DNA from: a bacterium
GTDB taxonomy: Bacteria; Patescibacteriota; Minisyncoccia; UBA6257; GWB1-50-10
Assembly (NCBI GenBank): GCA_021801565.1
Contig: JAJYXV010000015.1
Location: 155,198 to 219,197 of the forward strand
Reading direction: 5' to 3'
Length of the DNA stretch: 64,000 nt
The stretch's first letter is position 1. Each line of letters begins with the position of its first letter. The notes below the pieces were generated by a model that saw only the letters and a program-made list of their open reading frames with translations, had not been told where the DNA came from and did not search any database. A program made the translations under genes and the position numbers. This document shows positions 22,595-30,944 of this stretch, piece after piece.

Positions 22595-23125
22595 ATGGAT
22601 TGGATAAACAAAATTATATCGTATATTGTAGGTATAAATTGGGAAGGCGTTTTTTATATAGTGCGCTGGATATTTATTACGCTTGATGTTATTCTCGTTA
22701 TTCTTTTTGTTTTAGTGTTTAAGAAGGCACTCGAACATCGTCCGAAATTTGTTGCATTTCCAGGAGGGAAAAAATCGAGAAGGAAAAAAACAGAAATGAA
22801 AAAATTCGATTTTTCCCCACAGTGGAAAAAAATTCTTACTACCGTTGAAGCGGGGGAATCAGATGCGTTACTCCTTGCCATTATCGAGGCTGATAAACTT
22901 GCTGATACCGCATTGAAAAGTCTTAAATTTGAAGGGGAATATATTGCGGAACGTCTTGAACGAGCTGGAAAAATTATGGATTTGAAAACGATTGATGATG
23001 TGTGGCGCGTGCATCGTATTCGCAATAACCTTGTGCATACTCCCGGGTTTCATATTTCTCAATCACAAGCCAATGATGTTTTAAAGGTGTATGAGAAATT
23101 CTTAAAGGAATTAAATGTGTTATGA
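22595..23125 (+). CDS. hypothetical single-TM protein, start-stop overlapped (ATGA) with the downstream ATPase
   Basis: N-terminal TM (IFITLDVILVILFVLVF). Overlaps the ATPase gene by 4 nt, implying translational coupling. Confidence 0.4.
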   Translation: MDWINKIISYIVGINWEGVFYIVRWIFITLDVILVILFVLVFKKALEHRPKFVAFPGGKKSRRKKTEMKKFDFSPQWKKILTTVEAGESDALLLAIIEADKLADTALKSLKFEGEYIAERLERAGKIMDLKTIDDVWRVHRIRNNLVHTPGFHISQSQANDVLKVYEKFLKELNVL

Positions 23126-24594
23126 ACTCTTTTCGAAAGGGTACAAAAATTCAACTTATTAAATATGCGCCTCCTCCGCCAGATCTTCCTATTTATGGGC
23201 AAGTAGATCCAAAAGAAGTTTCGTTTATCGGTCGCACTAATTATGTCGCTGCGCTTGAAACGAAAAATTTCATTTTTGGATTAAAACGCGTTGATCGCCG
23301 AAGACACACTTATATTATTGGGAAAAGTGGTGTCGGAAAATCAAAGCTCTTAGAGTTATTGATCCGTCAGGATATTGCATATGGACATGGATTGTGTCTC
23401 ATTGATCCACACGGAGAGACAATCGAGGATATTCTTCCTTTCATCCCGAAAAATCGCATCGACGATGTGTGTATTATTGATCCGTCAGATTCTGAATTCC
23501 CGGTTTCATTTAATCCACTCGCAAACATTGATCCTTCATTCAAACATCAGCTTACTCAAGGATTGATTGAGGTTATGGAAAAACAATTTGGAGCAAACTG
23601 GACGCCACGCCTCGAGCACGTATTTCGATTTACTTGTCTTGCACTTCTCGATTACCCACACGCAACAATGCGCGGAATGATTATGATACTTACTGATCGC
23701 AATTATCGTCAGAAGGTGATCGAATACATCGAAGACGACATGGTAAAACGTTTTTGGGCAATTGAGTTTGCTGATTGGTCGGAAAAATTTGATACAGAAG
23801 CTATTATTCCTCTGGTAAACAAGCTTGGACAATTTCTTTCGAATCCGATGCTTCGAAATATTTTTGGACAGAAGGAAAACAAAGTTGATCTCGCAAAACT
23901 CATGCATGAAAACAAAATCGTGCTGATTAATCTTTCAAAAGGGAAAATCGGAGAAGAGAACTCAAGTTTTTTTGGTTCGATGTTTGTGACAAAAATAAAA
24001 CAGGCCGGCATGGAACGTGCATCGCTTCCGCCCTCGGAACGCCACGATTTCTATCTTTATGTTGATGAATTCCAAAATCTTGTTACTGATACGTTTGAAA
24101 ATCTTCTCTCTGAGGCACGGAAATATGCTCTTTGTCTTACGATGGCACATCAATATGTAGGACAGTTACTTCCGAAAGTGGAGGCGGCAGTACTTGGAAA
24201 CACAGGAACGATTGTTGTATTTCGTGTTGGCGGTGAGGATGCGGTGAAATTAAAACCGGAAATGGAACCGATTTTTGATGTGAAAGACATGATTAATCTT
24301 GGTATGGGTCAGATCTATATCAAAATGACTATTGATGGAGAAACATATGATCCTTTTTCTGCAGAAACATTACGCGTGCTTCCTTCTCCTCATGAATCAT
24401 ATCGCCAAGAGATTATTGAGATTTCCCGGAAGAAATATTCGATTTCCGCAGATTCTGCAAAAAAACTTATGCAAGAAGAAGAAGCATCTATTATTCGCAG
24501 CGCGCAAGAGAAAGCGATTATTAGTGGAGGTGTAAAAGGGGGAGCAACACCCTCTGAATCTGCTATAGATAAAAATCTTGAGCCATTAATATAA
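23122..24594 (+). CDS. TraG/VirD4-like (type IV coupling protein-like) ATPase, paralog A; DUF87/HerA-type P-loop plus TraG-D_C-like segment, no TM
   Basis: Walker A GKSGVGKS, LIDPHGE, YLYVDEFQNL (Walker B-like), then ARKY...L.MAHQ..GQL resembling the TraM-recognition domain. Confidence 0.6.
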   Translation: MNSFRKGTKIQLIKYAPPPPDLPIYGQVDPKEVSFIGRTNYVAALETKNFIFGLKRVDRRRHTYIIGKSGVGKSKLLELLIRQDIAYGHGLCLIDPHGETIEDILPFIPKNRIDDVCIIDPSDSEFPVSFNPLANIDPSFKHQLTQGLIEVMEKQFGANWTPRLEHVFRFTCLALLDYPHATMRGMIMILTDRNYRQKVIEYIEDDMVKRFWAIEFADWSEKFDTEAIIPLVNKLGQFLSNPMLRNIFGQKENKVDLAKLMHENKIVLINLSKGKIGEENSSFFGSMFVTKIKQAGMERASLPPSERHDFYLYVDEFQNLVTDTFENLLSEARKYALCLTMAHQYVGQLLPKVEAAVLGNTGTIVVFRVGGEDAVKLKPEMEPIFDVKDMINLGMGQIYIKMTIDGETYDPFSAETLRVLPSPHESYRQEIIEISRKKYSISADSAKKLMQEEEASIIRSAQEKAIISGGVKGGATPSESAIDKNLEPLI

Positions 24595-24634
24595 AATTTT
24601 TCATAGTCTCGAATCGTGAAAAGGTGCGGGGAAA

Positions 24635-24761
24635 CCCAGTAGTGAAAATTCAATATGCCGCTATCGCGGCGAAAAAGAAAAAAATAGCGAAAATAAGGTT
24701 TATAATTAAATAACAACCATTGGGTAGAATTCTTTTTCCCAATTGAATTTCTACTACTGGG
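24635..24761. repeat. MITE-like element, family 1 (TIR CCCAGTAGTGAAAATTCAAT / ATTGAATTTCTACTACTGGG)
   Basis: 20-bp imperfect TIRs. Internal hairpin GCCGC-TATC-GCGGC. Confidence 0.6.
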
Positions 24762-24786
24762 AAAGGTCGGATCTAAAAAAAACAAT

Positions 24787-28890: not shown

Positions 28891-28916
28891 TGGGGAAATT
28901 CTCCACTCTTATAATG

Positions 28917-29025
28917 AACCTCGTTAGGAGCTTGTATAAAATCTACCAAAACAAGTGTTTTCCTAAAAATTATGAATTTAGTTCTTAGTGAGATAAACTA
29001 CTGGGAATTTCGTTTCTAACGGGGT
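28917..29025. repeat. degenerate family-2 TIR element (AACCTCGTTAGGAG ... GTTTCTAACGGGGT)
   Basis: Right end matches the family-2 TIR ATTTCTAACGGGGT. Left end has 3 mismatches. Confidence 0.35.
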
Positions 29026-29039
29026 AAAATCAGAGATAT

Positions 29040-30944
29040 ATGGATTTAGAGTTAGATAAAGAAGTCGTCTATTTCGCAAAAACCGACTTTCGGAATTCGA
29101 AACGTCTTTTTGGTATAAAACGAAGCGATCGCAGACAACATATGTATGTTGTCGGAAAGACGGGTACTGGTAAAACTACATTATTGCACAATATGATGGT
29201 GCAGGATATTTCGAATGGAGAGGGTGTTTGTGTCATTGACCCTCACGGAGAATTTGTTGAGACACTTCTTCATAAGGTGCCAGAAAAGCGTGCGAAAGAT
29301 GTGGTCTATTTCAACCCAGCGGACCCAGATTCTTTTATTGGATTTAATGTACTTGAATTACCAGACCCACGATACAAACACCTTGTAGCATCGGGGCTTA
29401 TGGGAATTTTCACAAAAATTTGGTCAAACGTATGGTCCGCAAGAATGGAATATATTTTGAACAACGCAATTCTCGCACTTCTTGATACCCCGGGAACAAC
29501 TCTTTTAGGAGTGACACGTCTTTTAGTTGATAAAGAATATCGCCAGAAAGTTATTTCGAACGTAAAAGACCCTGTGGTAAAAGCATTTTGGATACATGAG
29601 TATGAAGAATGGCGCGATCAATTTAGAAATGAAGCAATTGCTCCTATCCAAAATAAGGTGGGTCAATTTCTTTCAACCGCGCTTGTGCGCAACATTGTTG
29701 GGCAATCGAAAAGTACCATTGATATTTTCGACTTAATGAATAGCGGGAAGATTTTTCTCGTGAATCTTTCAAAGGGAAGGATTGGGGAGGATAATTCCGC
29801 GTTACTTGGGGGAATGCTTATTACAAAAATGCAGTTGGCGGCAATGGAACGTGTGCGTATTCCCGAGGATGAACGCGTTGATTTTTTTCTTTATGTCGAC
29901 GAGTTTCAAAATTTTGCAACTGATTCATTTGCAAATATTCTCTCAGAAGCACGCAAGTATCGTTTAAATCTTATCCTTGCACATCAGTATATTGGACAGC
30001 TCGTCACTGATGTTTCTACGAAGGTGCGTGATGCAGTGTTTGGAAACGTAGGAACAATGGTGATGTTTCGCGTCGGCGCCGGAGATGCTGAATTTTTGGA
30101 AAAAGAATTTACTCCTGAGTTTGAAATTCAAGACATGGTAAATCTTCCCAATCGCTGTATTTATTTAAAACTTATGGTAGATGGAGTGACAAGTAGACCG
30201 TTTTCTGCTGGGACACTTCCTCCACTTCAAGGTCCTGAAGATTCTGCAGATGCCGAAGAGATCATTGAATCATCAAGGAAAAAATATGCCCGCCCACGTG
30301 CTATTGTGGAGCAAGAAATAAATAAGTGGAGTGGTATGTCGGAACAAACAACAGAAGCTCGCGCAGTACTTTGTTCACTTTGCGGAAAAGAAACAACAGT
30401 ACCATTTGAACCGGAAGAGGGAAGGCCGGTATATTGTCAGGATTGTTTGAAAAAAATTAAATCAGGCGAAGCGCGTCCGGTATCACTTCCTCAGATCAAT
30501 CCACAGAGAAGTTTGCAACAAAAAAGCAGGAAAGCGCTTGCGGCACTCGGTATTGAGTTTGATGATAAGGGAGGAGAAGAAATATTTGGAGCTGATGAAA
30601 AAGGCGGAAAAGAACAAAAAGGATCATTTACTGCGCGCGAACAAAAGTTATTCAGACCGCCGGCAAATACATACGGACAACAACCCGCTGATCCATCGAT
30701 AAAACGCCCTCCGCGCCAGCAAACTTCGCCACAATCAAAACCTTTTCAATCATCTCAGCCGTCTCGAGTTGAAAAACAACCAGAAGAAGAAAAAGAAGAA
30801 CCGACAATAAGATTAAGTGATGTGATTGCGCGGGGAAATATAAAACCAAAAGAAACAATCCAACCGAAGGAGGGGGATAATGTTTCCGGACTTAAAAATG
30901 CACTCGAGGAAGCCCTTAAAAATTTAAATAAGGAAGAAAAATAA
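29040..30944 (+). CDS. TraG/VirD4-like ATPase, paralog B, with C-terminal zinc ribbon and low-complexity tail
   Basis: GKTGTGKT Walker A, VIDPHGE, FLYVDEFQNF, ARKYRLNLILAHQYIGQL. C-terminal CSLCGK...YCQDCLKK, then a Q/P/K/E-rich disordered tail. Confidence 0.6.
   Translation: MDLELDKEVVYFAKTDFRNSKRLFGIKRSDRRQHMYVVGKTGTGKTTLLHNMMVQDISNGEGVCVIDPHGEFVETLLHKVPEKRAKDVVYFNPADPDSFIGFNVLELPDPRYKHLVASGLMGIFTKIWSNVWSARMEYILNNAILALLDTPGTTLLGVTRLLVDKEYRQKVISNVKDPVVKAFWIHEYEEWRDQFRNEAIAPIQNKVGQFLSTALVRNIVGQSKSTIDIFDLMNSGKIFLVNLSKGRIGEDNSALLGGMLITKMQLAAMERVRIPEDERVDFFLYVDEFQNFATDSFANILSEARKYRLNLILAHQYIGQLVTDVSTKVRDAVFGNVGTMVMFRVGAGDAEFLEKEFTPEFEIQDMVNLPNRCIYLKLMVDGVTSRPFSAGTLPPLQGPEDSADAEEIIESSRKKYARPRAIVEQEINKWSGMSEQTTEARAVLCSLCGKETTVPFEPEEGRPVYCQDCLKKIKSGEARPVSLPQINPQRSLQQKSRKALAALGIEFDDKGGEEIFGADEKGGKEQKGSFTAREQKLFRPPANTYGQQPADPSIKRPPRQQTSPQSKPFQSSQPSRVEKQPEEEKEEPTIRLSDVIARGNIKPKETIQPKEGDNVSGLKNALEEALKNLNKEEK

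What the first reader, a model, noticed from the sequence alone, without database searches (positions are those of the whole stretch)
22595..30944. T4CP-like ATPases lack their own TM domain; paralog B carries a C-terminal Zn-ribbon and disordered tail
Classical VirD4/TraG/TraD coupling proteins have an N-terminal TM domain. Both ATPases here start directly with a soluble domain (MNSFRKGTKIQL... / MDLELDKEVVYFAK...). ATPase A is preceded by a 176-aa single-TM protein overlapping its start by 4 nt, possibly a split TM module.

Paralog B ends with CSLCGKETTVPFEPEEGRPVYCQDCLKKIK (a zinc-ribbon), followed by an ~150-aa Q/P/K/E-rich low-complexity tail not present in A. This suggests distinct partner or substrate recruitment.
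Basis: partly seen in the sequence, partly recalled or inferred. Interest (0 to 1): 0.55.

Follow-up and report, generated by a model that had tools for sequence, protein, structure and literature searches.

The report
Split membrane-tethered secretion-type ATPase of CPR bacteria
Two chromosomal ATPases related to conjugation "coupling proteins" are real, and the membrane part missing from the first one is mainly a 481-aa protein two genes upstream that is fused to the ATPase in related bacteria; the 176-aa neighbour is a membrane-anchored nuclease-like (HEPN) accessory, and the function of this strongly conserved module is still unknown.

Summary
ATPase A (23122-24594) and B (29040-30944) are 47% identical paralogs with no TM segment. 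A 176-aa single-TM gene overlaps A's start by 4 nt. B carries a curated CxxC-x17-CxxC zinc ribbon and a 160-aa disordered tail.

Adjacency of the 176-aa gene to A holds in 71 of 78 related genomes, but this protein is never fused to the ATPase. Its cytoplasmic domain looks like HEPN, with a conserved R-N-x3-H motif.

This is DUF8128 (21143-22588), a TM hairpin plus a domain whose best structural matches are VirB4. In 60 of the 150 closest family representatives, DUF8128 is fused directly in front of the ATPase.

The setting is housekeeping (secDF, ftsAZ, comEC), with no VirB4 or relaxase nearby. A is more conserved than SecD in the same genomes.

My best reading is a vertically inherited, domesticated motor of the VirB4/VirD4 superfamily. 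It has been split into anchor, HEPN adaptor and motor, with a soluble paralog that recruits partners. The substrate is probably nucleic acid, but that is unproven.

Orphan coupling-protein homologs in Patescibacteria are already published. The anchor fusion and the HEPN partner were not found in the papers searched.

The parts
19942..20991 (+). Sigma-70 region 4 + HARE-HTH DNA-binding protein, a conserved upstream neighbour of the module
   Evidence: Pfam Sigma70_r4 1.7e-15 and HARE-HTH 2.1e-7. It lies upstream of DUF8128 in 59 of 68 evaluable loci. A sigma70_r4 protein also sits directly upstream of fused DUF8128-ATPase genes in the distant loci L081 and L088 (HARE-HTH seen only weakly in L081, not in L088), and upstream of DUF8128 in L089 and L090.
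21013..21044 (+). Terminator-like hairpin (14 bp stem) separating the sigma/HARE gene from the DUF8128 gene
   Evidence: This is a consensus scan only.
21143..22588 (+). DUF8128 membrane protein, called M490 here (481 aa from ATG 21143; the ORF list starts it at TTG 21116). It is the split-off N-terminal module of the ATPase. The TM hairpin is at about 21230-21427 and the cytoplasmic alpha/beta domain at 21428-22585.
   Evidence: An identical 481-aa protein, P0168, carries the precomputed Pfam hit PF26449, which names DUF8128. TM segments were found. The AF2 model has pLDDT 87 and pTM 0.79. The top 10 Foldseek PDB hits are all TrwK/VirB4 of R388, with probability 0.99-1.0 and E 7e-5 to 1.7e-3. 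The domain is fused N-terminally to the ATPase in 60 of 150 family representatives. It has no P-loop.
22595..23125 (+). 176-aa membrane-anchored HEPN-like protein, called T176 here. The TM helix is at 22658-22714, followed by a basic disordered linker. The helical HEPN-like domain is at 22814-23122, with the R-N-N-L-V-H motif at 23021-23038.
   Evidence: TM segment. AF2 pLDDT 87, with a 5-helix C-terminal domain. Foldseek top hits are HEPN proteins 7ae6, 2hsb, 1wty, 7bxo and 8xeh, with probability 0.9-0.99. AIIEAD, H140, R143 and H148 are invariant and N144 nearly so. Some family members give weak DUF4145, HEPN_Swt1 or DUF4559 hits. The gene is adjacent to A in 71 of 78 loci.
23122..24594 (+). 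ATPase A, the motor subunit without a TM segment. Walker A (GKSGVGKS) is at 23320-23343 and Walker B (YLYVDE) at 24055-24072. The C-terminal E-P-L-I peptide is at 24580-24591.
   Evidence: Pfam TrwB_AAD_bind, DUF87, T4SS-DNA_transf and TraG-D_C all pass their cut-offs. Motifs located. In the 80 loci returned, which were ranked and kept by similarity to A, A is 74-93% identical (median 78%); SecD in the same genomes has a median of 64%. E-P-L-I-COOH is present in 111-119 of 120 orthologs.
24787..25092 (+). CutA1 homolog. No terminator-like site was found between A and cutA; the next plus-strand terminator-like site is at 25411-25426. A functional link is unproven.
   Evidence: Pfam CutA1 2.6e-30. 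A CutA homolog is present in 38 of 80 loci, usually just downstream of A. Terminator scan.
25476..28890 (+). Two Cys-rich paralogs (587 aa and 548 aa) lying between A and B. This is a conserved downstream gene family and a possible partner or substrate.
   Evidence: Cys-rich paralogs lie downstream of A in 58 of 80 loci. The N-terminal treble-clef match is weak (PF13451 E 0.005). Similarity of internal CxxC modules to B's ribbon is also weak.
29040..30944 (+). ATPase B, the soluble paralog. Walker A (GKTGTGKT) is at 29154-29177. The zinc ribbon is at 30366-30458 and the disordered tail at 30462-30941.
   Evidence: In a rough NJ tree, B-like proteins with tails sit next to fused forms with long tails.
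30947..30980 (.). Terminator-like hairpin between B (+) and efp (-); the scan reported it on the minus strand.

Best explanation
The region encodes a chromosomal, vertically inherited membrane motor of the VirB4/VirD4 (type IV secretion ATPase) superfamily. In this lineage of CPR/Patescibacteria it has been split into separate genes.

Shown:
1. The 481-aa DUF8128 protein is the detached N-terminal module of the ATPase. Many relatives encode DUF8128 and the ATPase as one polypeptide.
2. The C-terminus of the DUF8128 protein and the N-terminus of A each keep a copy of the junction motif found once in the fused proteins.
3. DUF8128, the 176-aa protein and A sit together as a tightly spaced three-gene unit in about 90% of related genomes.
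4. A and B keep Walker A and Walker B motifs, and the RK and Q positions that align with those of TrwB.

Inferred:
- DUF8128 inserts a TM hairpin with both ends in the cytoplasm. Its VirB4-N-domain-like cytoplasmic domain holds a ring of A at the membrane, much as VirB3 and the VirB4 N-terminal domain do in type IV secretion systems.
- The 176-aa protein is oriented N-out and C-in. A basic linker places its HEPN-like domain beside the motor, where it acts as an RNA- or nucleotide-binding adaptor or as a nuclease.
- B lacks the junction motif. It uses its zinc ribbon and the short conserved motifs in its disordered tail to bring partners or cargo. It works either in mixed rings with A or by docking on the same anchor.
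- The cargo is most likely nucleic acid.
- The machine has a housekeeping role in these reduced genomes and does not serve conjugation.
For: Fusion evidence:
- 60 of the 150 closest 50%-identity representatives match the DUF8128 profile immediately upstream of the ATPase domain. None matches the 176-aa profile.
- The tool's own Pfam labels give DUF8128 + TrwB_AAD_bind for the fused genes in L081 and L088.
- The junction motif is duplicated across the split. The DUF8128 protein ends with KKAGPPAGIAIFG and A begins with KYAPPPPDLPIYG, and both align to the single SKKxEPPxxLPxxG of the fused forms.

Synteny:
- The order DUF8128, 176-aa gene, A holds in 68 of 75 evaluable loci, and the 176-aa gene is next to A in 71 of 78.
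- The median gap between the 176-aa gene and A is 11 nt.
- The same order is found when starting from the 176-aa protein.
- It is also found next to a relative only 46% identical to A.
- In L084 the order is DUF8128, a 689-aa ATPase, then a 459-aa A-like ATPase. This suggests that one anchor serves two paralogs.

Folds:
- DUF8128 model: pLDDT 87; the top 10 PDB hits are all VirB4.
- 176-aa protein model: pLDDT 87; HEPN proteins top the hit list; the R-N-x3-H motif is conserved.

ATPase family:
- Pfam T4CP models pass their cut-offs.
- TrwB and DotL are the best solved relatives, with alignment across Walker A, Walker B, RK and Q.

Core-gene behaviour:
- Neighbours are secDF, ftsAZ, ddl, comEC and secA, with no VirB4 or relaxase.
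- A has a median identity of 78%, against 64% for SecD and 57% for SecF in the same genomes.

Hints of nucleic-acid cargo:
- A zinc ribbon occurs in 17 of 57 B-like tails, and an S1 RNA-binding domain in 3 relatives.
- A sigma-r4/HARE-HTH DNA-binding gene is conserved directly upstream, including in distant fused loci.
- A non-CPR relative lies in an integrase island directly followed by a Replic_Relax gene.

Literature:
- 5,713 VirD4-type homologs were found in 2,918 Patescibacteria genomes, and only 148 of them lie near virB4. The authors say that exaptation 'cannot be ruled out' (PMC12102498).
Against: - No physical interaction was tested. The tools offered no multimer prediction.
- The DUF8128-VirB4 resemblance is at fold level only. 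TM-scores are 0.25-0.34, and the tool did not report which part of VirB4 aligns. No sequence or profile signal to VirB4 N-domain models or to TrsD was found.
- HEPN support for the 176-aa protein rests on weak Foldseek E-values (0.05-0.5) and sub-threshold Pfam hits. The motif histidine is lost in about 8 of about 71 orthologs, so catalysis cannot be universally required.
- Assignment of the ATPase within the superfamily is ambiguous. hhalign gave 91% probability to the pGO1 VirB4 (TrsE) but 35% to its T4CP (TrsK).
- The 80 loci all come from one class and were chosen by similarity to A. Conserved gene order there partly reflects relatedness.
- The substrate is entirely inferred.
- The T4CP homolog of Southlakia epibionticum was reported as not essential for epibiotic growth (PMC12102498). 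That sits awkwardly with a core housekeeping role, though it is a different CPR class.
Confidence: 0.55

Rival explanations
1. A and B are genuine coupling proteins for the chromosomal Patescibacteria type IV secretion system, which is encoded elsewhere (near dnaA in this class). The VirB4-like DUF8128 domain lets them dock into the VirB3/VirB4/VirB6 inner-membrane complex. B's tail and the 176-aa protein recruit effector proteins or DNA for export into the host.
For: - Pfam T4CP models are matched above threshold, and TrwB and DotL are the best solved relatives.
- Coupling-protein genes are often encoded far from virB4 (PMC12102498).
- DotL-type coupling proteins use long C-terminal tails to bind adaptors (my own knowledge of the Dot/Icm system).
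- A VirB4-like N-domain would be a plausible docking device.
- The Cys-rich paralog arrays next to A could be effectors.
Against: - Only 148 of 5,713 homologs lie near virB4.
- The homolog in S. epibionticum is dispensable while the secretion system is essential (PMC12102498).
- No T4SS gene or relaxase is in the 64-kb window.
- NCBIfam T4CP equivalog scores are far below cut-off, for example 42.9 against 366.
- The sequence conservation is unusual for effector-coupling components.
Confidence: 0.25
2. One reading: the 176-aa single-TM protein is the detached TM domain of ATPase A and by itself anchors A to the membrane.
For: - The gene is adjacent to A in 71 of 78 loci, usually with tight spacing or overlap.
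- All 73 homologs found have a TM segment.
- Its soluble domain is predicted to be cytoplasmic by the positive-inside rule (sequence).
Against: - It is never fused to the ATPase in 150 representatives, whereas DUF8128 is fused in 60.
- It is absent from loci that carry fused or other split forms (L081, L084, L056, L064).
- Its soluble part is a distinct HEPN-like domain.
- It evolves much faster than A: median identity 37% against 78%.
Confidence: 0.1
3. The module is an FtsK-like DNA pump for chromosome segregation or dimer resolution at the division site in a lineage with a reduced divisome.
For: - It belongs to the FtsK/HerA/VirB4/VirD4 superfamily.
- It is membrane tethered, and B has a P/Q-rich linker-like tail.
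- ftsA and ftsZ lie 8 kb upstream.
- It shows core-gene conservation.
- A DNA-binding neighbour is conserved.
Against: - The Pfam FtsK_SpoIIIE match is below threshold and covers only the P-loop (19.1 bits against 24).
- No gamma (KOPS-reading) domain is present.
- FtsK is reported in Saccharibacteria transcriptome papers, so CPR bacteria are not generally FtsK-less.
- Two paralogs and a HEPN partner are not explained.
Confidence: 0.07
4. The genes form an anti-phage or anti-plasmid defence system that combines a HerA-like ATPase with a HEPN nuclease.
For: - PADLOC mad8 hits for A (4e-10) and B (4.5e-16), and weaker HerA hits.
- HEPN domains are common defence effectors (PMC3710099).
- The sigma/HARE protein hits the MzaA C-terminus.
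Against: - The hits are domain-level only, and no other system components are present.
- The module is present at the same chromosomal position in 68 of 75 evaluable related genomes, with very high conservation. This is the opposite of the patchy, fast-evolving pattern of defence islands.
- DUF8128 and the 176-aa protein have no PADLOC hit.
Confidence: 0.03

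Closest known systems
Type IV coupling proteins (TrwB of R388, VirD4, TraD/TraG, DotL)
   Same: - The P-loop domain matches Pfam TrwB_AAD_bind, T4SS-DNA_transf and TraG-D_C above threshold.
- Walker A, Walker B, RK and Q positions align with TrwB.
- Like DotL and TraD, B has a long C-terminal extension suited to binding adaptors.
   Different: - There is no N-terminal TM domain in the same polypeptide. In fused relatives the N-terminal module is DUF8128, with a VirB4-like fold, not a T4CP TM domain.
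- The genes sit in a chromosomal housekeeping context with no relaxase or T4SS genes.
- Scores are far below every NCBIfam T4CP equivalog cut-off.
- Two paralogs are present per genome.
VirB4/TraC/TrsE ATPases with VirB3 (including VirB3-VirB4 fusions) and TrsD
   Same: - The architecture of the fused relatives is a TM hairpin, an N-terminal alpha/beta domain and a C-terminal P-loop domain.
- The best structural matches of the DUF8128 model are TrwK/VirB4.
- The family profile aligns to the pGO1 TrsE ATPase domain with 91% probability.
- A stand-alone homolog of the VirB4 N-domain has a precedent in TrsD (PMC12102498).
   Different: - No sequence-level match to VirB4 N-domain models or to TrsD.
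- The Pfam AAA_10 match is below threshold.
- No neighbouring VirB3, VirB6 or VirB8 genes were recognised; not every small neighbouring ORF was scanned.
Orphan T4CP homologs of Patescibacteria (Quinonero-Coronel et al. 2025, PMC12102498)
   Same: This is almost certainly the same gene set. That paper reports about two VirD4-type homologs per genome, rarely near virB4, with a suggested exaptation. NCBI names a close homolog 'type IV secretion system DNA-binding domain-containing protein'.
   Different: The passages of that paper retrieved here do not mention the DUF8128 anchor, its fusion and fission, the HEPN partner, the A/B division of labour or the conserved terminal peptides. I read those passages by term search and did not read the whole text.
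Membrane-associated HEPN proteins (Anantharaman et al. 2013, PMC3710099)
   Same: A single TM helix followed by a HEPN domain with an R-x4-H motif. That paper proposes RNA cleavage at the membrane in response to a stimulus.
   Different: The protein here belongs to a different family with no Pfam assignment. It has no WP-signature TM domain, is encoded in an operon with a secretion-type ATPase, and behaves as a core gene rather than a conflict-system gene.
Ced/Ted DNA-import systems of archaea (PMC9905601)
   Same: They are a precedent for conjugation-type ATPases domesticated as a chromosomal, non-conjugative nucleic-acid transport function. A and B give weak NCBIfam CedD hits (2e-5 and 3e-6).
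   Different: The hits cover only the P-loop region. No CedA-like or pilin-like genes are present. The analogy is functional only.

Membership tests
Type IV coupling protein (VirD4/TraG/TraD/TrwB) | Nucleotide-binding domain matching curated T4CP models | tested here: met
   PF10412 scores 30.1 bits for A and 62.4 for B (cut-off 20.5). PF02534 scores 25.0 and 31.5 (cut-off 20.1). PF12696 scores 22.6 and 29.5 (cut-off 22). The family profile hits TrwB at 9e-7. All NCBIfam T4CP equivalogs are far below cut-off.
Type IV coupling protein (VirD4/TraG/TraD/TrwB) | N-terminal transmembrane domain in the same protein | tested here: not met
   No hydrophobic segment in A or B. Fused relatives carry DUF8128 instead.
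Type IV coupling protein (VirD4/TraG/TraD/TrwB) | All-alpha domain inserted in the nucleotide-binding domain | tested here: inconclusive
   The Pfam TrwB_AAD_bind alignment spans the region (A residues 59-369). However, the PDB alignment to TrwB covers only the Walker A and Walker B segments. No structure model of A was made.
Type IV coupling protein (VirD4/TraG/TraD/TrwB) | Genetic linkage to a relaxase and/or mating-pair-formation genes | tested here: not met
   No relaxase or VirB4 was found among the window ORFs scanned. The literature reports 148 of 5,713 homologs near virB4.
VirB4/TraC/TrsE | N-terminal domain plus C-terminal P-loop domain, membrane-tethered through VirB3 or a fused TM hairpin | tested here: inconclusive
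   Fused relatives have a TM segment, DUF8128 and the ATPase in that order. The top 10 PDB hits of the DUF8128 model are all VirB4, but the aligned region was not reported and TM-scores are low.
VirB4/TraC/TrsE | Sequence match to VirB4 models | tested here: not met
   AAA_10 scores 16.2 bits against a cut-off of 27.5. VirB4 NCBIfam hits range from 1e-4 to 7e-6 and are far below cut-off. The family profile found no VirB4 in the PDB sequence search at E<=1. In partial contrast, hhalign against pGO1 TrsE gave 91% probability.
HerA/NurA repair ATPase | HerA-type domain order (N-terminal barrel domain) with an adjacent NurA nuclease gene | tested here: not met
   The generic DUF87 central domain is matched (29 and 40.9 bits). 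However, HerA is a weaker PDB relative than TrwB (3.6e-3 against 9e-7). No NurA gene is in the window.
FtsK/SpoIIIE | FtsK motor domain above threshold and a gamma domain | tested here: not met
   PF01580 scores 19.1 bits against a cut-off of 24, over 25 residues around the P-loop of B only.
HEPN superfamily (176-aa protein) | Helical bundle fold with a conserved R-x4-6-H motif | tested here: met
   R143 and H148 are invariant and N144 nearly so in 32 sequences. R-N-x3-H is present in about 62 of the 73 hits in loci. Foldseek top hits are HEPN proteins with probability 0.9-0.99.
HEPN superfamily (176-aa protein) | Match to a curated HEPN family model | tested here: not met
   Only sub-threshold hits in a few members: DUF4145 in 2 of 32 (best 6e-4), HEPN_Swt1 in 3 of 32, and DUF4559 in 7 of 32.
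DUF8128 (PF26449) | Match to the Pfam model | tested here: met
   There are precomputed PF26449 hits for the identical protein P0168 and nearly all homologs, and for the fused genes. The local Pfam copy does not appear to include this model, so hmmscan returned nothing.
CxxC-x17-CxxC treble-clef zinc ribbon (PF23477 / TIGR04272), B only | Match above curated cut-offs with four Cys ligands | tested here: met
   54.5 bits against a cut-off of 27, and 56.2 bits against 36. The motif is conserved in 9 of 11 orthologs.

The most novel reading that the evidence does not exclude
The DUF8128 anchor, the membrane HEPN protein, motor A and adaptor-bearing motor B together form a nucleic-acid transport and processing machine found in many CPR lineages and derived from a conjugation ATPase. 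A membrane-tethered ring moves RNA or DNA across or along the membrane. The HEPN domain cuts or gates the nucleic acid, and B's zinc ribbon or S1-bearing tails hold it. This would give these nucleotide-auxotrophic bacteria a route, independent of ComEC and of the VirB4 secretion system, to scavenge or exchange host nucleic acids.
Probability: 0.12. Interest if true: 0.85.

Novelty: new variant of a known kind. Interest (0 to 1): 0.6.

Why it matters
CPR/Patescibacteria make up a large share of bacterial diversity, have tiny genomes and depend on hosts. Genes that they keep under strong selection are likely to be central to that lifestyle.

Here a conjugation-type ATPase is more conserved than SecD in the same genomes. 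It is present as two paralogs and is unlinked to the known secretion system. A 2025 survey counted these genes and could only say that exaptation could not be ruled out.

This analysis gives the module a defined parts list:
- a DUF8128 anchor with a VirB4-like fold, which is fused in some lineages and split in others;
- a membrane HEPN partner;
- a motor with an invariant C-terminal E-P-L-I peptide;
- a second motor with a zinc ribbon and short linear motifs.

These parts make the function testable through specific pairwise interactions, point mutants (Walker A, R143/H148, deletion of EPLI) and a phyletic comparison with VirB4, FtsK and ComEC.

The module also bears on how VirB4 and coupling proteins are related, because the family combines a VirB4-like N-domain with a T4CP-like motor.

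Tried and rejected
- HerA/NurA assignment: rejected. TrwB and DotL are better solved relatives than HerA, and there is no NurA gene.
- FtsK assignment: the Pfam match is below threshold and covers only the P-loop.
- Classical T4CP with a fused TM domain among relatives: none seen. N-terminal TM segments were predicted almost only in DUF8128-bearing proteins.
- Fusion of the 176-aa protein to the ATPase: searched for and not found (0 of 150). All 47 of its own homologs are 142-193 aa.
- Sequence-level link between DUF8128 and VirB4 N-domain, VirB3 or TrsD: no Pfam hit in 50 members even at E<=5. hhalign against pGO1 TrsD gave 0.1% probability. A profile search against PDB sequences found nothing.
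- DUF8128-like N-domain of the non-CPR relative P0319 against 72,556 plasmids by tblastn: no match.
- PDB sequence search with A alone: no hit at E<=0.1.
- Defence-system assignment through PADLOC: only domain-level mad8 and HerA hits.
- Literature on DUF8128 / PF26449: no papers found.
- Literature linking HEPN with Patescibacteria or VirB4: nothing relevant.
- Names for the fused proteins through cluster look-up: none carried an informative name; the only one listed was 'hypothetical protein' for a non-fused B-like protein.
- The NJ tree is a rough distance tree without support values. I used it only to describe groupings.

Full report
**Setting**

The window is a chromosomal stretch of a CPR/Patescibacteria genome. 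The closest protein hits that carry organism names are mainly labelled Candidatus Jorgensenbacteria and Patescibacteria group bacterium. The window carries a 16S rRNA gene, tRNAs, ftsA/ftsZ, ddl, secD/secF, efp, mnmA, a split comEC, rmuC and secA.

Around the finding, the plus-strand gene order is:
- secD, secF;
- a sigma70-r4/HARE-HTH protein (19942-20991);
- a membrane protein I call M490 (ORF 21116-22588, probable start 21143);
- a 176-aa protein I call T176 (22595-23125);
- ATPase A (23122-24594);
- cutA;
- two Cys-rich paralogs;
- ATPase B (29040-30944).

**Checking the observation**

- A and B are paralogs, 47% identical over 415 aa.
- Neither has a hydrophobic segment that could span a membrane.
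- T176 has one strong TM segment at residues 22-40, and its stop codon overlaps A's start in an ATGA.
- B residues 443-473 match the curated treble-clef models PF23477 and TIGR04272 well above their cut-offs.
- The 160 residues after the ribbon are 71% disorder-promoting, against 44% in the core.
- Both ATPases keep Walker A (GKSGVGKS in A, GKTGTGKT in B) and Walker B (YLYVDE in A, FLYVDE in B).
- Both also keep the SEARKY...AHQY segment, which aligns with the RK and Q positions of TrwB.

**Which ATPase family**

Pfam coupling-protein models (TrwB_AAD_bind, T4SS-DNA_transf, TraG-D_C) are matched above their gathering scores, as is the generic DUF87 model.

NCBIfam lists TraD and VirD4-like families first, but at scores far below the equivalog cut-offs. 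A alone finds no solved structure by sequence.

A profile built from 30 fused relatives finds TrwB (E 9e-7), DotL (2.5e-4) and then HerA (3.6e-3). There is no NurA gene.

The placement inside the VirB4/VirD4 superfamily is less clean. The same profile aligns to the VirB4 of pGO1 (TrsE) with 91% probability, and to its coupling protein (TrsK) with 35%. I therefore call the motor "T4CP-like by curated models, VirB4/VirD4 superfamily".

**Conserved neighbourhood**

A scan of one genome per species returned 80 loci, all CPR of the Paceibacteria type. A tblastn survey of these loci gave the following:

| Feature | Count |
|---|---|
| Order M490, T176, A | 68 of 75 evaluable loci |
| T176 directly upstream of A | 71 of 78 |
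| Sigma/HARE gene further upstream | 59 of 68 |
| Cys-rich paralogs downstream | 58 of 80 |
| B within the locus | 13 of 80 |

The gap between T176 and A has a median of 11 nt. The exact 4-nt overlap is rare, at 3 of 72.

Two searches that started from divergent T176 homologs recovered the same order.

Median identities in the same genomes are:

| Protein | Median identity |
|---|---|
| A | 78% |
| SecD | 64% |
| SecF | 57% |
| M490 | 52% |
| T176 | 37% |

The loci were selected by similarity to A, so the absolute values for A are biased upward. The within-genome comparison is still valid.

**The missing N-terminal module is M490, not T176**

The exhaustive representative search found 21,468 relatives at E<=1e-3. 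I sorted the 150 best representatives, which are 34-66% identical to A (mostly 38-53%), by architecture:

| Architecture | Number |
|---|---|
| Match to the M490 profile immediately N-terminal to the ATPase domain | 60 |
| Long N-terminal extension with no profile hit | 15 |
| Short N-terminus with a long C-terminal tail (B-like) | 52 |
| Short at both ends (half of them closer to A than to B) | 23 |
| Match to the T176 profile | 0 |

M490 is Pfam DUF8128 (PF26449), according to the precomputed annotations. The local Pfam copy returned nothing for it.

The fusion is a classic Rosetta-stone link between M490 and the ATPase. An alignment of the junction shows two things. M490's C-terminus (SKKAGPPAGIAIFG) and A's N-terminus (KYAPPPPDLPIYG) both correspond to the single SKKxEPPxxLPxxG linker of the fused proteins. 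B starts after that motif. This is what a gene fission with a short duplicated junction would leave behind.

In a rough NJ tree, A groups only with unfused forms (all short except one with a C-terminal tail), and the B-like tailed proteins sit beside fused long-tail forms. The tree has no support values.

Other arrangements support the idea that one anchor serves both paralogs:
- L084 has DUF8128, then a 689-aa ATPase, then a 459-aa A-like ATPase, with no T176.
- L081 has two fused genes flanking a sigma/HARE gene.
- L088 has a sigma-r4 gene directly upstream of a fused gene.

**What M490 looks like**

The AF2 model is confident, with pLDDT 87 and pTM 0.79. It shows N-terminal helices followed by an alpha/beta domain.

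The hydrophobic segments and the flanking lysines suggest a hairpin with both ends in the cytoplasm. This is an inference from the sequence. It agrees with the domain being fused to a cytoplasmic ATPase in relatives.

The ten best Foldseek hits in the PDB are all TrwK/VirB4 of the R388 secretion system, with probability 0.99-1.0 and E 7e-5 to 1.7e-3. The next hits are unrelated ferredoxin-like folds at E>=1e-2.

Three cautions apply:
- The tool does not report which part of VirB4 aligns, and TM-scores are low (0.25-0.34).
- M490 has no P-loop and sits N-terminal to the motor, so the VirB4 N-terminal domain is the logical counterpart. That remains an inference.
- No sequence-level signal supports it.

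By analogy, M490 would play the part of VirB3 plus the VirB4 N-domain. TrsD, a stand-alone relative of the VirB4 N-domain, is reported to be common in Patescibacteria (PMC12102498). That is a precedent for such a split.

**What T176 is**

The alignment of 32 homologs has an invariant AIIEAD and an H-R-x-R-N-x-L-V-H block. In that block H140, R143 and H148 are invariant and N144, L146 and V147 are nearly so.

The AF2 model (pLDDT 87) shows a long TM helix, a disordered basic linker at residues 53-67 and a five-helix C-terminal domain.

The Foldseek hit list is headed almost entirely by HEPN proteins: HEPN toxins of HEPN-MNT pairs, AF_0298, a Thermus HEPN protein (PDB 1wty) and a Sulfolobus HEPN protein. 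Probabilities are 0.9-0.99, though E-values are weak (0.05-0.5). A few members give sub-threshold hits to DUF4145, HEPN_Swt1 and DUF4559.

R-N-x3-H is the HEPN R-x4-H signature. Across loci, all 73 homologs have a TM segment. About 62 keep the motif and about 8 have lost the histidine. Catalysis therefore cannot be essential everywhere.

Membrane-linked HEPN domains are a known theme (PMC3710099). I did not find one described in an operon with a secretion-type ATPase.

**B and the termini**

B's ribbon follows the pattern CxxC[GA]K...[VL]PFxP..xRPVYCx[DE]C. It is present in 9 of 11 full-length orthologs in the loci and in 17 of 57 B-like representatives. One further B-like protein and two fused proteins carry an S1 RNA-binding domain.

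A orthologs end in a nearly invariant E-P-L-I-COOH, and many fused short-tail forms end in F-x-E-P-[IL]-[IL]. B-like tails often end in P-G-[EQ]-x-[IV]-x-[FL] or in an amphipathic L..L..L helix. These look like docking peptides, and their partners are unknown.

**Context and function**

No VirB4, relaxase or other recognised secretion gene lies in the 64 kb.

A terminator-like hairpin precedes M490. The next plus-strand terminator-like site follows cutA, and another follows B.

The published survey of Patescibacteria counted 5,713 VirD4-type homologs in 2,918 genomes, only 148 of them near virB4. It noted that the homolog in S. epibionticum is not essential while the secretion system is, and it left exaptation open. 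That count, about two per genome, matches A plus B.

Outside CPR, a high-GC relative has a faint DUF8128 match and two ATPase domains. It lies in an island with an integrase, an excisionase-like HTH gene and transposases, and is directly followed by a Replic_Relax gene. The family therefore probably began as a DNA-transfer ATPase of mobile elements and was domesticated in CPR.

The evidence for nucleic-acid cargo is circumstantial:
- the superfamily itself;
- the HEPN partner;
- the zinc-ribbon and S1 tails;
- the conserved sigma-r4/HARE-HTH neighbour;
- the relaxase-type neighbour of the non-CPR relative.

PADLOC gives only domain-level hits. The fixed chromosomal position and high conservation also argue against a defence system.

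**Verdict**

The real finding is a conserved three-gene module, made of the DUF8128 anchor, a membrane HEPN protein and motor A, together with a tailed paralog B. It represents a split version of a fused DUF8128-ATPase that is widespread among the closest relatives.

The existence of orphan T4CP homologs in this phylum is already published, and DUF8128 is already a Pfam entry. The following were not found in the literature I could search:
- the fusion/fission link between DUF8128 and the ATPase;
- the VirB4-like fold of the anchor;
- the HEPN partner;
- the terminal motifs.

I rate it a new variant of a known kind, of moderate to good interest. The function remains open.

Noticed in passing
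window 25476-27239, 27244-28890, 33318-35102, 35078-36829: Four Cys-rich paralogs of 548-594 aa have essentially no Pfam assignment. The only hit is a weak N-terminal treble-clef match (PF13451, E 0.005). The same family follows ATPase A in 58 of 80 related loci, in 1-5 copies. Their CxxC...P.YCxxC modules weakly resemble B's zinc ribbon. They could be partners or substrates of the ATPases.
   Followed up: partly
window 19942-20991; also L081 2857-3852, L088 542-1672, L089 2558-3568, L090 2539-3576: A sigma-70 region 4 + HARE-HTH protein sits directly upstream of DUF8128. In distant CPR lineages a sigma70_r4 protein likewise sits upstream of fused DUF8128-ATPase genes (HARE-HTH weak or undetected there). 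It may be a DNA-binding partner. In the window a terminator-like hairpin (21013-21044) separates it from the DUF8128 gene.
   Followed up: partly
L086 8001-12444 (JGI metagenome contig Ga0307372_10000074): A non-CPR, high-GC relative (P0319, 1227 aa) has a DUF8128-like N-domain and two ATPase domains. It lies in an island with an integrase, an excisionase-like HTH gene and transposases, and is directly followed by a Replic_Relax (PF13814) gene. This is a mobile-element context, unlike the CPR core context.
   Followed up: partly
window 36900-38396 and 38406-39320: ComEC appears split into two adjacent ORFs. The first has DUF4131 + Competence domains and the second a metallo-beta-lactamase domain. 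They lie about 6 kb downstream of ATPase B.
   Followed up: no
window 24580-24591 (last four codons of ATPase A): A orthologs end in a nearly invariant E-P-L-I-COOH (E in 118, P in 119, L in 112 and I in 111 of 120). Many fused short-tail relatives end in F-x-E-P-[IL]-[IL]. This looks like a docking peptide whose partner is unknown.
   Followed up: partly
window 22540-22588 and 23122-23190: The C-terminus of the DUF8128 protein (KKAGPPAGIAIFG) and the N-terminus of A (KYAPPPPDLPIYG) both align to the single linker motif of the fused proteins. The junction therefore seems to have been duplicated when the gene split.
   Followed up: yes
window 21116-21143: The mechanical ORF for the DUF8128 protein starts at TTG 21116. 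The identical database protein (481 aa) starts at the ATG at 21143, and most homologs are 465-472 aa, so a start at or after 21143 is more likely.
   Followed up: partly
L016, L023, L043, L047, L049, L065, L066, L068 (gene upstream of the ATPase): In about 8 related genomes the 176-aa protein has lost the histidine of the R-N-x3-H motif (for example RNELTS, RNELAR, RNKIID) while keeping its TM segment and its position.
   Followed up: partly
L056 2954-5511; L084 475-5711: Two variant arrangements were seen. L056 has two tandem DUF8128 genes and no 176-aa gene. L084 has DUF8128, then a 689-aa ATPase, then a 459-aa ATPase as consecutive genes.
   Followed up: partly
window 6673-8205, 48123-49100, 51735-53438, 53445-54713: Four sizeable ORFs (510, 325, 567 and 422 aa) have no Pfam family at E<=1e-4.
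   Followed up: no
window 24787-25092: A CutA1 homolog lies just downstream of ATPase A. No terminator-like site lies between them. A CutA homolog is present in 38 of 80 related loci, usually in the same position.
   Followed up: no
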